Shown: one piece after another, positions 49,464-52,383 of the stretch
Layout of the letters: every line of letters starts with the position of its first letter
Position numbering within the stretch: the stretch's first letter is position 1
Origin: Naegleria gruberi
Taxonomy: Eukaryota
Length of the DNA stretch: 64,000 nucleotides
Direction: 5' to 3' (one strand)
Assembly (NCBI GenBank): GCA_000004985.1
Contig: GG738847.1
Position numbers and translations under genes: made by a program
The notes under the pieces: generated by a model
The model's input: the letters and a program-made list of their open reading frames with translations, nothing else
Told to the model about the DNA's origin: nothing
Databases searched by the model: none

Positions 49464-52383
49464 ATGAGATTAAAGGTGGTGAAACGTATTGTTTCCTCTT
49501 CTGCTAGTGGATCCTCACCAACATTGCGAAAATATTCATCATCCGGATCAATTAAATTATCTACCACAACTATTTCTTCTGCATCATCATCATCCAGTGT
49601 TGGTGCTAATACAATTGTTGGCTCCTACTCTTCATCGGCAGATCATCATCAGGAATTATTTATTTGTTTTTATCATGAAACAACAGAGAGATGGATTGTC
49701 TTGACAGATTTGATTAATCACTTATCTACCATGTCAATATTTTGGAATGATTCACAGAGTATGGATGAACCTCCATCACCTTCTAAAATTCTATCATCGG
49801 GTGAGTTTTTCCAAGTGTTTAGTTAATTAATTTATTATGGGTAATTTGAATATTGATACATGGATGTTAATGTGTATGAATTGTGAATTTTTGTGATTAA
49901 TATAGGGTGTATGGGACATCATAAAGATCATTTAGAATTGATCAAATCTTCTATGGAGAAGAATTCACGTATTGGTTCTGATATGTGTGAATTTTTGAAG
50001 TTCTACAAGGAACATGGTGATCAGATCAAGGCATTCCTTCTTCATTGTCCTGAGTTGACCATTGAATTGAAGGATTTGTTGAGAAAGAACAAACATAGAG
50101 ATATGTTTATTGATGGAACCGAATTCAGTGATGCAAAAACATCAACAGATGTTGCCTCTGACTGTCCATATCAAGATTTATTACCTTTCAAACCAAAATC
50201 CTTCAGGGACGCTTCATTGTGGCTTTCACATAATATTAGAGCAGCAAGAGGATTGGCAAAGATGACACTTCCACTTGCTTATTATTCTGTAATTTTCCCA
50301 TTTGAGAATATCTTTCCAAGGATTACATTCCCAGTTTTCAATCCTTCAAAATCATTCTTTGATCATCCAATTTTCTATATTGGAAATCCATTGACAATGT
50401 ATGGAAATGGGGCTGAGATTCCATATCCACATTTTTGTAAGAATTTGGACTATGAATTGGAAGTTGGAGCATATCTTATTAAACAAATTAGAAATGCCAG
50501 TGCTGAAGAAGCTGAAAATGCAATTGGTGGATTTGTCTTATTGAATGATTTTTCAGATCGTAGTAATCAATTTAGAGAAATGGTAAGTTTCTATTGGTTT
50601 TTAAGTACATTGTTTGAATTAAAATCCACAGACCAAGGACAGATTTGGACCATACAAATGTAAATCATTTGGTACAGGGTTGGGCACTGTTGTAGTTACA
50701 CCTGATGAATTGAGAGATGAATGGAAGAATGGTGTTCAAGGACAGGTGTTGATTAATGGTAAGAAAGTTGCTCAAAGTGATAGAGTCACTCTCATCAATA
50801 ATGGAGTTGATAAGCAATACGGAGAGGCTCCATATTATACATTTGGAGAAACTATTGCTTATATTTCTTCATCGGAGACAATCTATCCAGGTGAGTTGGT
50901 TGGATCTGGTACATTGCCAAATCTTGCTGGTATTGAAAACGACATATCACTCAAGGAGGGTGACAGTGTCACTCTTTCTATGGAACCTTTTGGAAAATTG
51001 ACTCACAAAATTGGCCAGAAAGAGGAAATTCCAGAAAATCATTGGAGGAGTACACAAAAGAGAGCCAGAAGAACCAAGCCAACCAGTGCCTGTTTGACAT
51101 TTTTGATGTACTTGTGCTTCTTCTTATCAATTCTAATTGGATTTTTGTTTTATACACCACCAAGTGTTGATACTCCGCAATGGGATGTACCAAAATCTGT
51201 TCCTTTTGACAAGTTGTCTGCTCCAATCTATAACATTCAACATTCTCTAAATTTGGATCCACTATATTCGAAAGGTTTTTACTCTTCACCTGAATCTACC
51301 TTGATTCGAAATGGATATTTGTACAGCGGTCTGTCGGATGGTACTATTAGCAGAGTGAAAGTTTTGGCCAGAAAATCAACTAGTGGCTCCACAGAGTTTG
51401 ATTTTGGAACACCAGAAATTGTCATATCAATGAGGGTTTTAGGTAAGGAGCCAATAACTCTAGAGGAATGTCGAATTGGAAAGAAAGAAAGCGAAAACAA
51501 ATGTGGTCGTCCACTCCAACTCAAATTTGATGGAAGAGGAGCTCTATATGTTGCCGATGCTGTTTTTGGACTCGTAAAGGTTTATTCAAAGAATTCAGAA
51601 GATATTGAAACTAAAGGTGGTTCTTTGGCTAGTGATCTTCAAGTTGACAGATTGGCCAATATTCCATTCGCTAATACTCTCGTTATTCAAGAGCCATACA
51701 TTTATATTACCATGACTTCTTCAAAGTTTGGAAGAAATGAACATATACTCGAAGTTTTGGATGGTGGTGGCAATGGAGCTCTATTCAGATATGACATGAG
51801 AAATGGAGCTACTGAAACTTTGATCAATGAATTGCACTTCCCTAATGGTATGGTCTTCTACAAGAATTCACTTTATTTCGCTGAATTGACTAGATATAGA
51901 ATTACTAGATATGAACTCACCACACGTAAAGTAACTGTTCACATGGATAACTTGTCATGCATTCCAGATAATTTCTCTTTCATTACCAAGAATGAAAAAC
52001 CACACGTTTGGATTGGATGTTCAGGACCTCGTATCCCATTCTTGGATTTCCTCCATAAAAATCCAATCGCTGCCAAGCAACTTTCCAAAATCAAAGCTAT
52101 AATGGAACCAATACTCTCTTTCATTAGAAAACCAATTGGCCATGCCCTTCAAGTTAATTTGGAGGATAAAAAAGTGAGTAGAGTATTGCAAGATTTGAGT
52201 GGAAAGCATTTCCATCTGATCAGTGAGGTAATTGCTGCTAATCTTGTGCCATCTAACAATTCTGAATGGCCTTTACAATTTGAGGAAGCACATGAAGATT
52301 CTCCTTCCCAAAATTATTACATTATCGGAAATGTTAATTATGGAGCTAAATTGTCTATTGTTAATCCAGTCGAATCTGAATAA
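49464..52383 (+). CDS. Three-exon gene (~920 aa): a fumarylacetoacetase (FAH)-like hydrolase region fused in-frame to a TM segment and a strictosidine-synthase-like (APMAP/hemomucin-type SSL) beta-propeller domain.
   Basis: Exon 1 is 49464-49800 (MRLKVVKRIV...ILSSG-), with donor g|GTGAGT. Exon 2 is 49906-50582 (..GCMGHHKDHL...[17 protein letters not shown]), with donor ATG|GTAAGT. The intron is 50583-50631 (49 nt). Exon 3 is 50632-52383 ([27 protein letters not shown]...). FAH-like matches: [16 protein letters not shown] versus [54 protein letters not shown] versus [41 protein letters not shown] versus PGDLLASGT. Then TM [22 protein letters not shown]. Then SSL-like [18 protein letters not shown] ... 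[52 protein letters not shown]. There is no stop between the two halves. Confidence 0.7.

What the first reader, a model, noticed from the sequence alone, without database searches (positions are those of the whole stretch)
49464..52383. In-frame fusion of a fumarylacetoacetase-like hydrolase with a TM + strictosidine-synthase-like domain
Exons 2-3 encode a region with clear FAH-fold similarity: MELEM-like [33 protein letters not shown] and PGELVGSGT. It ends around ..[18 protein letters not shown]. With no stop, the same ORF continues through a hydrophobic helix ([22 protein letters not shown]). It then reads through a ~400-aa SSL/APMAP-like six-bladed beta-propeller-type domain ([66 protein letters not shown]). 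APMAP-type proteins are normally stand-alone type II membrane proteins. A fusion behind a soluble tyrosine-catabolism-type hydrolase is not an architecture I recognise. It could be a genuine fusion, two genes joined by a missed stop/indel, or a retained in-frame intron.
Basis: partly seen in the sequence, partly recalled or inferred. Interest (0 to 1): 0.6.

Follow-up and report, generated by a model that had tools for sequence, protein, structure and literature searches.

The report
Conserved hydrolase–membrane–propeller fusion gene, already annotated
This is a real three-exon Naegleria gruberi gene, already in RefSeq/UniProt, that joins a fumarylacetoacetase-family hydrolase, one membrane helix and an APMAP/strictosidine-synthase-like propeller in a single protein; the same fusion occurs in other amoebae, an alga and some bacteria, but nobody has studied what it does.

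Summary
Window 49464-52383 (+) is one gene with three exons and two GT..AG introns. It encodes a 921-aa protein made of an FAA_hydrolase domain (Pfam E 6e-36), a basic linker, one strongly hydrophobic helix and a Str_synth/SSL six-bladed propeller (E 4e-11).

The window is Naegleria gruberi NEG-M. The gene is already annotated as one 919-aa protein (XP_002682377.1, UniProt D2V152, "fumarylacetoacetate hydrolase").

The fusion is genuine. The evidence:
- An independent metagenome assembly (98.9% identical) keeps the same open frame.
- Willaertia magna and an unnamed eukaryote encode it as single intronless ORFs.
- N. fowleri has the same architecture.
- Assembled transcripts of Heterolobosea sp. 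BB2 and Dermamoeba run through the junction, and Cyanophora has it too.
- A version without the membrane helix exists in actinobacteria, where its propeller half sits among bacterial propellers. This suggests a separate fusion event.

Both halves keep their catalytic or metal-binding residues. The FAH half is not a canonical fumarylacetoacetase. The SSL half looks like a metal-dependent hydrolase, not a Pictet-Spenglerase.

The predicted topology puts FAH in the cytosol and SSL on the lumenal or extracellular side. The missed-stop and retained-intron readings are rejected. The function is unknown, and the fusion as an object is not new.

The parts
49464..49800 (+). Exon 1. It holds the start codon, the first beta-strand of the FAH N-terminal domain (MRLKVVKR) and a Ser-rich, low-confidence insert (aa about 14-58). 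It then continues with LFICFYHETTERWIVL.
   Evidence: Gene model. The N-terminal motifs align with W. magna, N. fowleri, Cyanophora, the actinobacterial proteins and others. pLDDT is below 50 for residues 14-58. Strain L001 carries an in-frame 3-nt indel at 49582-49584.
49801..49905 (+). Intron 1 (105 nt, GTGAGT...ATATAG, phase 1).
   Evidence: G+C is 0.24, against 0.34-0.38 in the exons.
49906..50582 (+). Exon 2. It encodes the helical part of the N-terminal region, the RD..H motif (D214, H221) and the first half of the FAH catalytic domain (E296, E298, D327, R331, Q334).
50583..50631 (+). Intron 2 (49 nt, GTAAGT...CCACAG, phase 0). The RefSeq model appears to use an acceptor 6 nt further downstream (50637), which removes the residues TK.
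   Evidence: The orthologues read NEM(T/V)KDRFGP, which favours the acceptor at 50631.
50632..52383 (+). Exon 3. It encodes the second half of the FAH domain, the linker, the transmembrane helix, the whole SSL propeller and the TAA stop (52381-52383).
   Evidence: Metagenome contig L001 encodes the same ORF with a single amino-acid change.
50361..51012 (+). FAA_hydrolase (PF01557) catalytic domain, aa 265-465. Intron 2 interrupts it.
   Evidence: Pfam E 5.7e-36. PDB profile hits to HpcE, YisK, L-2,4-diketo-3-deoxyrhamnonate hydrolase and FAHD1 have E values from 2e-31 to 3e-25. Foldseek agrees.
51013..51087 (+). Conserved basic linker (QKEEIPENHWRSTQKRARRTKPTSAC). Its family pattern is IGxKE....W(R/K) followed by a K/R-rich stretch.
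   Evidence: Alignment A2. There are 5 K/R residues in the 15 residues before the helix, a net charge of +5.
51088..51156 (+). Single transmembrane helix (signal-anchor type), aa 491-513, [23 protein letters not shown].
   Evidence: Hydropathy 2.47. AlphaFold2 places a helix at residues 488-510 of the 919-aa protein. All eukaryotic fusion members have one such helix; the actinobacterial ones have none.
51250..52362 (+). Strictosidine-synthase-like / APMAP-like six-bladed beta-propeller, aa about 545-915. Candidate metal ligands are E559 (PES), N686 (FAN), N743 (PNG) and D784/N785 (PDN).
   Evidence: The Pfam Str_synth core is aa 693-765, at 51694-51912. The SSL profile hits rice TGW6 (8kg3) at E 7.7e-60 and strictosidine synthases at about 5e-39. 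Foldseek gives a TM-score of 0.75 to 8kg3, normalised to the target. Invariant columns are and residue numbers.

Best explanation
This is the Naegleria gruberi gene annotated as XP_002682377.1 / D2V152. It is a genuine, evolutionarily conserved fusion that encodes one single-pass membrane protein.

The N-terminal roughly 470 residues are a complete bacterial-type FAH-superfamily enzyme, with an N-terminal domain and a catalytic domain. It keeps the FAH-type metal ligands and catalytic residues, so it is most likely an active metal-dependent hydrolase of beta-diketo acids or acylpyruvates.

A short K/R-rich linker and one hydrophobic helix follow. The C-terminal roughly 400 residues form an APMAP/SSL-type six-bladed propeller. 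It keeps the Glu/Asn/Asn/Asp metal-ligand set of the paraoxonase/DFPase/SMP30 superfamily, so it is most likely a metal-dependent ester or lactone hydrolase rather than a strictosidine synthase.

Inferred mechanism: the helix acts as an internal type II signal anchor. The FAH enzyme then sits on the cytosolic face of the membrane, and the propeller faces the ER lumen or the cell exterior, as in APMAP. The two halves probably serve the same, still unknown, pathway, because they have also been fused in actinobacteria, apparently in a separate event. In the eukaryotic proteins they would act on opposite sides of the membrane.

Shown here: the gene structure, the domains, the conservation of the fusion, and the intact motifs. 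Inferred: the topology, the catalytic activity, and any shared pathway.
For: Gene and domains.

Identity of the window and of the gene: exact matches to N. gruberi D2V151 and to actin. The 90%-identity cluster holding this ORF contains XP_002682377.1, a 919-aa protein identical to my model except for two residues.

The fusion is real:
- L001, an independent metagenome assembly, is 98.9% identical over 5.1 kb. Within the CDS it differs only by an in-frame 3-nt indel and two substitutions. The intergenic DNA differs at 46 positions.
- W. magna L003 6001-8679 is one intronless ORF of 892 codons.
- L088 carries a 743-codon intronless fusion ORF.
- N. fowleri has an 878-aa orthologue. Transcripts GEZU01013101/2 of Heterolobosea sp. 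BB2 and a Trinity transcript of Dermamoeba span FAH, helix and SSL. Cyanophora has an 838-aa version.
- Of 17 aligned family members, 14 hit FAA_hydrolase and 13 hit Str_synth.

Membrane helix and charge bias: every eukaryotic member has one helix with 3-6 K/R residues (net charge +3 to +5) on its N-terminal flank and a near-neutral C-terminal flank. FAH-plus-helix proteins with no SSL domain exist: Pharyngomonas P0140 and the unnamed P0130.

Structure: AlphaFold2 pLDDT is 87.7, with both domains confident. Foldseek matches YisK, 8gsr, the Burkholderia FAHs 4qku/5ti1 (about 411 aligned columns, rmsd 3.1-3.6), TGW6 and strictosidine synthases.

FAH catalytic set: H158, E233, E235, D264, R268, Q271, K284 and K286 are invariant across 34 family members, and D151 is conserved in at least 90% of them. 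These are positions in the first sequence of alignment A4 and correspond to H221, E296, E298, D327, R331, Q334, K347, K349 and D214 of the 921-aa protein. They align with FAHD1 and Burkholderia FAH motifs.

SSL ligand set: E47, N231 and N273 are invariant and N174 and D272 nearly invariant across 12 family members. The first four are E559, N686, N743 and D784 of the protein. Rice TGW6 has them; strictosidine synthase has APNS, PGG and PGN at those positions.

Comparators: TGW6 is an IAA-glucose hydrolase. APMAP is a type II ER protein with a lumenal propeller.

Actinobacterial fusions without a helix: P0129 on contigs L084-L086 and a Frankiaceae MAG, L004. Their SSL half nests inside a bacterial SSL clade with 98% bootstrap support.
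Against: - No transcript or protein data for N. gruberi itself were available. Single-transcript evidence comes from other species.
- The N. lovaniensis assembly has a 1-nt frame shift in the linker, which its annotators bridged with an artificial intron. This is either an assembly error or a real disruption in that species.
- Acrasis kona, also a heterolobosean, has the closest SSL relative as a stand-alone helix-plus-SSL gene with no FAH gene upstream. The fusion is therefore not universal in the group.
- If the two domains lie on opposite sides of a membrane, simple substrate channelling cannot explain the fusion.
- In bacteria the two families are rarely neighbours. Among 83 loci recovered around relatives of the actinobacterial fusion, only one besides the fusions themselves has both genes within 8 kb.
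- Topology rests only on the positive-inside rule and on analogy with APMAP.
- The FAH tree is unresolved (bootstrap support 30% or less), so the number of fusion events among eukaryotes is unknown.
Confidence: 0.85

Rival explanations
1. Two neighbouring genes, FAH and helix-plus-SSL, were artificially joined in this assembly by a sequencing error that removed a stop codon or shifted the frame.
For: The N. lovaniensis assembly does carry a 1-nt frame shift at exactly this linker. Stand-alone helix-plus-SSL genes (Acrasis) and stand-alone FAH-plus-helix genes (Pharyngomonas) do exist in nature.
Against: - An independent metagenome assembly has the same open frame.
- W. magna, N. fowleri and L088 have continuous ORFs, and the BB2 and Dermamoeba transcripts run through the junction.
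- There is no in-frame ATG between the end of the FAH domain and the helix. The only candidates are at aa 456, inside FAH, and at aa 497-498, inside the helix.
- In N. lovaniensis the frame that holds the SSL part also lacks an ATG before the helix.
Confidence: 0.02
2. The linker and helix segment is a retained in-frame intron, so the mature mRNA would lack the membrane helix.
For: The N. lovaniensis RefSeq model splices out part of this segment.
Against: - The segment is conserved as protein: a basic flank followed by a hydrophobic helix, across all eukaryotic members. It is present in the assembled BB2 and Dermamoeba transcripts.
- G+C is 0.37, like the exons, against 0.24-0.27 in the two real introns.
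- There is no GTAAGT/GTGAGT-type donor. The only in-frame GT..AG candidates have donors (GTACTT, GTGCTT) unlike those of the gene's two real introns.
- The N. lovaniensis 'intron' coincides with a frame shift, so it looks like an annotation workaround.
Confidence: 0.02
3. There is one gene and one precursor, but two working products. The protein would be cleaved after or within the helix, for example by signal peptidase or an intramembrane protease. That would release a soluble lumenal or secreted SSL enzyme and leave a membrane-anchored FAH. Alternatively, an internal promoter could yield a separate SSL product.
For: Both 'half' architectures occur naturally: FAH-plus-helix in Pharyngomonas P0140, P0130 and P0157, and helix-plus-SSL in Acrasis P0132. 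The segment just after the helix (P-x-x-(I/V)-(D/x)-P) is conserved.
Against: No cleavage motif was tested, and none can be tested with these tools. No suitable internal start codon exists. APMAP, the best-studied relative, stays membrane-anchored.
Confidence: 0.12
4. One or both domains are non-catalytic. The propeller might act as an ER chaperone or scaffold, like the paraoxonase-like MEC-6 and POML-1 of C. elegans. In that case the fusion says nothing about a shared metabolic pathway.
For: Paraoxonase-like proteins with chaperone-type roles are listed (PMC4831881). The propeller of Naegleria and Willaertia has lost the usual Asp of the 'YFTDSS' motif: it reads TMTSS, SMTST or TSSSN. No substrate is known for this clade.
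Against: The full Glu/Asn/Asn/Asp ligand set and the full FAH catalytic set are conserved in N. gruberi. That is not expected of pseudo-enzymes.
Confidence: 0.1

Closest known systems
XP_002682377.1 / EFC49633.1 / UniProt D2V152_NAEGR, 'fumarylacetoacetate hydrolase' of Naegleria gruberi NEG-M. Orthologues are N. fowleri XP_044565116.1, N. lovaniensis C9374_013451 and Willaertia magna ABK040_012853.
   Same: It is this very locus. The 919-aa annotated protein equals my 921-aa model apart from the residues TK at the exon 2/3 junction. The orthologues have the same order of FAH, helix and SSL.
   Different: The RefSeq product name describes only the N-terminal half, and it is not supported at equivalog level. 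The intron 2 acceptor probably lies 6 nt further upstream than annotated.
APMAP (adipocyte plasma membrane-associated protein) and other strictosidine-synthase-like type II membrane proteins.
   Same: A single helix lies directly upstream of an SSL six-bladed propeller, and the paraoxonase-like metal ligands are conserved. APMAP is a type II protein with a lumenal propeller. The Acrasis relative is even named 'plasma membrane-associated protein'.
   Different: APMAP has only a short cytosolic N-terminus. Here a 490-aa FAH-family enzyme occupies that position. Similarity to APMAP itself was not measured, because no APMAP sequence was compared.
Rice TGW6 (Os06g0623700, PDB 8kg3), an SSL-family IAA-glucose hydrolase.
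   Same: It is the best solved-structure match to the C-terminal half: profile E 7.7e-60 and Foldseek TM-score 0.75. It shares the GPES, CGRPLGL, FxN, PNG and PDN motifs.
   Different: TGW6 has no FAH domain. Identity is only about 19% in the structural alignment. The Naegleria propeller has extra insertions and lacks the Asp of the YFTDSS motif.
Strictosidine synthase proper (STR1, PDB 2fp8).
   Same: Same Pfam family and the same fold.
   Different: STR1 has APNS, PGG and PGN where this protein and the SSL clade have PES, PNG and PDN. STR1 therefore lacks the metal site that this protein keeps. A Pictet-Spenglerase function is unlikely.
Bacterial FAH-family proteins of about 320 aa (COG0179, 'fumarylacetoacetate hydrolase family protein'), and the solved relatives YisK (8sky), L-2,4-diketo-3-deoxyrhamnonate hydrolase (8gsr), FAHD1 (6fog) and Burkholderia FAH (4qku, 5ti1).
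   Same: The stand-alone bacterial proteins are 36-43% identical over 72-95% of the FAH half. They share the same fold and the same ExE..D..R..Q..K set plus the upstream D-x6-H motif.
   Different: They are soluble and have no helix or propeller. No equivalog model is reached: TIGR01266 scores 44 against 375 and NF053535 scores 57 against 500. The substrate therefore cannot be transferred.
Actinobacterial FAH-SSL fusion proteins without a membrane helix (685 aa, P0129; Frankiaceae MAG JADGOU010000313.1).
   Same: Same domain order and the same two Pfam families in one polypeptide.
   Different: They have no transmembrane helix. Their SSL half groups with bacterial stand-alone SSLs (98% bootstrap), which suggests a separate fusion event.

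Membership tests
FAH superfamily (Pfam PF01557 FAA_hydrolase) | Significant match to the family model above its gathering score | tested here: met
   124.6 bits against a cut-off of 23.9, E 5.7e-36, aa 265-465.
FAH superfamily (Pfam PF01557 FAA_hydrolase) | Metal-binding Glu-x-Glu ... Asp triad and catalytic Lys | tested here: met
   E296, E298, D327 and K347/K349 lie in columns invariant across 34 relatives. They align with the HELELG / D..R..Q / AKSF motifs of FAHD1.
FAH superfamily (Pfam PF01557 FAA_hydrolase) | FAH fold | tested here: met
   The AlphaFold2 model (pLDDT 87.7) matches YisK, 8gsr, FAHD1, 4qku and 5ti1 with Foldseek E values from 1e-16 to 1e-13.
Canonical fumarylacetoacetase (EC 3.7.1.2, TIGR01266; the annotated product name) | Score at or above the equivalog cut-off | tested here: not met
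   TIGR01266 scores 44.1 bits against a cut-off of 375.3, and only residues 279-365 match.
Canonical fumarylacetoacetase (EC 3.7.1.2, TIGR01266; the annotated product name) | FAA_hydrolase_N (PF09298) N-terminal domain | tested here: not met
   No such hit at E <= 1 in the Pfam scan.
Canonical fumarylacetoacetase (EC 3.7.1.2, TIGR01266; the annotated product name) | Catalytic constellation Asp126/His133/Glu199/Glu201/Asp233/Arg237/Gln240/Lys253. The mouse FAH numbering is recalled from Timm et al. 1999. | tested here: inconclusive
   The spacing is the same: D214 to H221 is +7, and D327 to R331, Q334 and K347 are +4, +7 and +20. The ExE/D/R/Q/K part aligns significantly with Burkholderia FAH 5ti1. 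The D..H stretch aligns collinearly with 'TDFYSSKEH', but that stretch scores below significance on its own.
2,4-didehydro-3-deoxy-L-rhamnonate hydrolase (NF053535) | Score at or above the equivalog cut-off | tested here: not met
   56.6 bits against a cut-off of 500, although 8gsr is the best single-sequence PDB hit.
Strictosidine synthase-like family (Pfam PF03088 Str_synth) | Significant match above the gathering score | tested here: met
   43.4 bits against a cut-off of 25, E 3.9e-11. The SSL profile hits TGW6 at 7.7e-60.
Strictosidine synthase-like family (Pfam PF03088 Str_synth) | Six-bladed beta-propeller fold | tested here: met
   Foldseek to 8kg3 gives E 6e-15 and a TM-score of 0.75 normalised to the target. 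Strictosidine synthases give 0.66-0.74.
Strictosidine synthase proper (Pictet-Spenglerase) | Catalytic Glu309 of STR1 and absence of the paraoxonase-type metal site | tested here: not met
   The protein keeps E559, N686, N743 and D784, where STR1 has N, (other), G and G. The Glu309 column aligns only at low confidence (EHFEQ against ISEVI), so that single position is inconclusive.
Paraoxonase / DFPase / SMP30-type metal-dependent hydrolases (six-bladed propeller clan) | Glu/Asn/Asn/Asp ligand set for the catalytic Ca2+ | tested here: met
   The columns holding E47 and N231 are invariant and those holding N174 and D272 nearly invariant in alignment A6. The profile also hits DFPase, PON1 and Drp35, with E values from about 1e-11 to 1e-9. 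Which structural ligand each column corresponds to is inferred from motif position, not from coordinates.
Paraoxonase / DFPase / SMP30-type metal-dependent hydrolases (six-bladed propeller clan) | Metal-dependent esterase or lactonase activity | not testable with these tools
   This needs recombinant protein.
APMAP-like type II membrane SSL proteins | A single signal-anchor helix immediately upstream of the propeller | tested here: met
   Helix at aa 491-513, and the propeller starts about 35 residues later.
APMAP-like type II membrane SSL proteins | Short cytosolic N-terminus | tested here: not met
   490 residues, including a complete FAH-family enzyme, precede the helix.
APMAP-like type II membrane SSL proteins | Propeller faces the lumen or the cell exterior | not testable with these tools
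   This is predicted only. The N-terminal flank has a net charge of +5 and the C-terminal flank -1. It is also argued by analogy with APMAP.

The most novel reading that the evidence does not exclude
The FAH-family enzyme and the APMAP/SSL-type propeller have been fused more than once: with a membrane helix in several eukaryotic lineages, and without one in actinobacteria. That recurrence would mean the two families act on consecutive intermediates of one unrecognised pathway. One example would be hydrolysis of an ester or lactone by the propeller, followed by C-C cleavage of the resulting diketo acid by the FAH domain. In eukaryotes the pathway would be split across a membrane. If true, this would be the first concrete biochemical lead to the orphan function of APMAP-like proteins.
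Probability: 0.25. Interest if true: 0.6.

Novelty: already known. Interest (0 to 1): 0.3.

Why it matters
As an object it adds nothing new. The gene has been in RefSeq and UniProt since the N. gruberi genome annotation, and its orthologues are deposited with both Pfam domains.

Its value is as a lead. The substrates of the APMAP/SSL proteins of animals and most plant SSLs remain undefined, and so do those of this bacterial-type FAH subgroup. A fusion that is conserved across distant eukaryotes and that apparently arose separately in actinobacteria is a classic pointer to a shared pathway. It gives a defined pair of domains to assay together.

Two practical points follow for annotation:
- The product name 'fumarylacetoacetate hydrolase' should not be taken as evidence that Naegleria has this step of tyrosine catabolism.
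- The N. gruberi intron 2 acceptor and the N. lovaniensis model at the linker probably need correction.

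Tried and rejected
I used an alignment of orthologues plus the window exons instead.
- The afdb50 Foldseek library was not available. UniProt-wide architecture relatives could therefore not be listed by name.
- Four literature searches found nothing about this architecture or these proteins. 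They covered Naegleria with strictosidine synthase, FAH with strictosidine synthase and fusion, and the accession numbers.
- I looked for a bacterial operon linking the two families. Among 83 loci with hits around relatives of the actinobacterial fusion, only L013 (a Mycolicibacterium psychrotolerans plasmid) has separate SSL and FAH genes within 8 kb, about 6 kb apart. A general operon association is not supported.
- Neighbour-joining trees with bootstrap gave mixed results. The SSL tree separates a bacterial clade that includes the bacterial fusions (98%). It groups the SSL domains of Naegleria and Willaertia with Acrasis (79%). The FAH tree has no supported deep nodes (30% or less). I make no claim about a single origin of the eukaryotic fusions.
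- There is no conserved gene order around the gene between N. gruberi, N. lovaniensis and W. magna.
- I considered that the N-terminus MRLKVVKR... might be a mitochondrial presequence. I rejected this because it aligns with the first beta-strand of bacterial and other FAH-family proteins.
- I could not check whether the ligand residues cluster in space, because the model coordinates are not exposed.

Full report
**1. What is in the sequence**

The region 49464-52383 on the + strand holds one gene with three exons: 49464-49800, 49906-50582 and 50632-52383. Its two short introns are 105 and 49 nt, with GTGAGT and GTAAGT donors and AG acceptors. The spliced CDS is 2766 nt (921 aa plus the stop codon), with no internal stop.

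Pfam finds FAA_hydrolase at aa 265-465 (E 5.7e-36) and Str_synth at aa 693-765 (E 3.9e-11). There are weaker SGL and SSL_N matches in the C-terminal half.

Between the two domains lies one strongly hydrophobic segment, aa 491-513 (Kyte-Doolittle mean 2.47). It is preceded by QKRARRTK.

**2. Where the window comes from, and whether the gene is known**

Two intronless neighbours are exact matches to Naegleria gruberi NEG-M proteins. They are the SLC30 transporter at 44378-45757 and the actin at 54542-55675.

The 90%-identity cluster that holds the exon 3 ORF contains XP_002682377.1 / EFC49633.1 / UniProt D2V152_NAEGR, named 'fumarylacetoacetate hydrolase', 919 aa. That sequence equals my model except that it lacks the residues 'TK' at the exon 2/3 junction.

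The fusion has therefore been annotated as a single protein in the reference genome. N. fowleri, N. lovaniensis and W. magna read NEM(T/V)KDRFGP at this point. The acceptor at 50631 is therefore better supported than the one 6 nt downstream that the RefSeq model implies.

**3. Is the fusion real?**

- **Independent assembly.** A metagenome contig (L001, ENA ERZ929261) is 98.9% identical over 5.1 kb and carries the same continuous ORF. Within the CDS it differs only by an in-frame 3-nt indel in the Ser-rich part of exon 1 and by two substitutions. The surrounding intergenic DNA differs at 46 positions.
- **Orthologues.** Willaertia magna encodes FAH, helix and SSL as one intronless ORF of 892 codons. 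An unnamed, gene-dense eukaryotic contig (L088) encodes a 743-codon intronless version. N. fowleri has an 878-aa orthologue.
- **Transcripts.** Transcriptome-assembly sequences GEZU01013101/2 of Heterolobosea sp. BB2 and a Trinity transcript of Dermamoeba algensis run from the FAH domain through the helix into the propeller. Contamination of those transcriptomes cannot be excluded.
- **A more distant lineage.** Cyanophora paradoxa has an 838-aa version.
- **The linker is coding.** The linker and helix are conserved as protein, with the pattern IGxKE....W(R/K), a basic stretch and then a hydrophobic helix. G+C is 0.37, like the exons, against 0.24-0.27 in the two introns. There is no canonical donor. 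There is also no in-frame ATG from which a separate helix-plus-SSL protein could start.

The one discordant case is N. lovaniensis. The FAH part and the helix-plus-SSL part are offset by one nucleotide within an A-rich stretch of the linker, and the RefSeq model hides this behind an 'intron'. Adding one base would restore ...KK(Q/H)RSAPLGICFTF..., which matches N. fowleri. The SSL frame has no ATG of its own. An assembly error is therefore the simplest reading, but a real lesion in that species cannot be excluded.

**4. Anatomy of the two halves**

*FAH half.* It is 36-43% identical over 72-95% of its length to stand-alone bacterial 'FAH family' proteins of about 320 aa. These include an N-terminal strand, M(K/R)L+..., that matches the N-terminus of the N. 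gruberi protein. This shows that exon 1 and its ATG are genuine, and that the N-terminus is not a targeting peptide. N. gruberi has a disordered Ser-rich insert at residues 14-58 (pLDDT below 50).

The following residues lie in invariant or nearly invariant columns of a 34-sequence alignment: D214, H221, E296, E298, D327, R331, Q334, K347 and K349. They align with the HELELG, D..R..Q and AKSF motifs of FAHD1 and with [16 protein letters not shown] and GPFNAKTF of Burkholderia FAH. The upstream RD......H lies collinear with 'TDFYSSKEH'. The spacing of these residues matches the catalytic constellation of mammalian FAH as I recall it from Timm et al. 1999. That comparison rests on my own knowledge.

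No equivalog model is reached. TIGR01266 fumarylacetoacetase scores 44 against 375, and the rhamnonate-pathway hydrolase scores 57 against 500. The domain is therefore probably an active metal-dependent hydrolase of diketo acids or acylpyruvates, but its substrate is unknown. The RefSeq product name over-reaches.

*SSL half.* A profile of this clade hits rice TGW6 (8kg3) at 7.7e-60, strictosidine synthases at about 5e-39, and then DFPase, PON1 and Drp35. N. gruberi keeps E559 (PES), N686 (FAN), N743 (PNG) and D784-N785 (PDN). All lie in invariant or nearly invariant columns. True strictosidine synthase has APNS, PGG and PGN at the same places. The propeller therefore resembles the metal-dependent hydrolases of this fold rather than the Pictet-Spenglerase. 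TGW6 is an IAA-glucose hydrolase (PMC10706642).

*Structure.* An AlphaFold2 model of the annotated protein has a mean pLDDT of 87.7. Both domains are confident, and there is a helix at residues 488-510. Foldseek matches the two halves to YisK, 8gsr, 4qku, 5ti1 and FAHD1, and to TGW6 and strictosidine synthases.

**5. Topology and mechanism (inferred)**

Every eukaryotic fusion member has exactly one strong hydrophobic helix. Its N-terminal flank has 3-6 K/R residues (net charge +3 to +5), and its C-terminal flank is roughly neutral. By the positive-inside rule the FAH domain is cytosolic and the propeller is exoplasmic. This is the type II orientation shown experimentally for APMAP, whose propeller faces the ER lumen (PMC10849633).

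Relatives that consist only of FAH plus a C-terminal helix exist: Pharyngomonas kirbyi P0140, P0130 and P0157. This is the arrangement of a tail-anchored protein, and it is consistent with a cytosolic, membrane-tethered FAH. Helix-plus-SSL alone exists in Acrasis kona, and it is truly stand-alone at the genomic level.

I therefore read the N. gruberi protein as a single-pass membrane protein with one enzyme on each face of the membrane. Whether the halves are later separated by proteolysis is open.

**6. Distribution and origin**

A profile search of 1.84 billion representative proteins found further fusions. They are P0125, P0126, P0127, P0136, P0145 and Cyanophora P0143, plus a 685-aa version without a helix (P0129).

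P0129 lies among LuxR-type regulator and short-chain dehydrogenase genes on GC-rich contigs. It has a 54%-identical full-length relative in a Frankiaceae MAG.

In a bootstrapped neighbour-joining tree, the SSL halves of the bacterial fusions nest within actinobacterial stand-alone SSLs; the bacterial clade has 98% support. The SSL domains of Naegleria and Willaertia group with Acrasis (79%). The bacterial fusion thus appears to be an independent event. The FAH tree is unresolved, so the number of eukaryotic events is unknown.

In bacteria the two families are not generally neighbours.

**7. Comparison with what is known, and novelty**

The object is already in the public record as one protein. 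Its orthologues carry both Pfam domains in precomputed annotations. I found no paper that discusses it.

It works like an APMAP-type type II membrane propeller to which a complete cytosolic FAH-family enzyme has been added. It is a member of both Pfam families. It is not a canonical fumarylacetoacetase, and it is not a strictosidine synthase.

The interesting residue is the recurrent fusion, which predicts a functional link between two poorly understood enzyme families. That is a hypothesis, and I put its probability at about 0.25.

**8. Verdict**

- The 'genuine fusion' reading is supported, and the artefact readings are rejected.
- Novelty: already known as an annotated gene, but unstudied.
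- Interest: 0.3.

Noticed in passing
window 50583-50637: The RefSeq protein XP_002682377.1 lacks the residues 'TK' at the exon 2/3 junction, which implies an intron 2 acceptor at 50637. The orthologues read NEM(T/V)KDRFGP, which favours the AG at 50630-50631.
   Followed up: partly
L002 about 7225-7245 (N. lovaniensis PYSW02000006.1): There is a one-nucleotide frame offset in the A-rich linker between the FAH part and the helix-plus-SSL part. The RefSeq model (808 aa) bridges it with an 'intron' that deletes most of the membrane helix. This is probably an assembly error or an annotation workaround.
   Followed up: partly
L002 5969-6049 against window 49659-49739: The conserved exon 1 segment (LFICFYHETTERW...) is also present upstream of the annotated N. 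lovaniensis start. That gene model therefore seems truncated at its 5' end as well.
   Followed up: no
window 49500-49640, with the indel at 49582-49584: Exon 1 contains a Ser-rich, low-complexity insert of about 45 aa. It is absent from all orthologues and predicted to be disordered. It differs by an in-frame 3-nt indel from the metagenome strain L001.
   Followed up: partly
P0140 (Pharyngomonas kirbyi transcript), P0130, P0157: These FAH-family proteins end in a single C-terminal hydrophobic helix and have no propeller, an arrangement like a tail-anchored enzyme. I have not seen it described for FAH enzymes.
   Followed up: partly
L013 1031-2002 and 8070-8846 (Mycolicibacterium psychrotolerans plasmid NZ_CP192589.1): This is the only bacterial locus recovered with separate SSL and FAH-family genes near each other, about 6 kb apart. 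The intervening genes were not examined.
   Followed up: no
window 46055-46963 (-) and 47141-48175 (+): Two divergently oriented ORFs have similar sequences (for example ...ITICNYN... and ...VTVCNWN...). The first hits the N-terminal part of the amiloride-sensitive sodium channel family (PF00858, E 3e-11). They are probably partial exons of DEG/ENaC-like paralogues.
   Followed up: partly
window 52674-54275 (+): The immediate downstream neighbour is an S10 serine carboxypeptidase (Pfam E 7e-90). It has an N-terminal hydrophobic segment and a C-terminal hydrophobic segment (LSVLFIFLTIILTIVVIVLAVCL), so it appears to be a membrane-anchored carboxypeptidase.
   Followed up: no
window 36434-37744 (-): An intronless ORF with Rieske 2Fe-2S and KshA_C domains and an N-terminal hydrophobic segment. 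It resembles a 3-ketosteroid-9-alpha-hydroxylase or a Neverland-like sterol oxygenase.
   Followed up: no
window 56346-56395 and 60601-63071: Runs of N (assembly gaps). The ORFs listed across 60496-63150 are artefacts of the gap.
   Followed up: no
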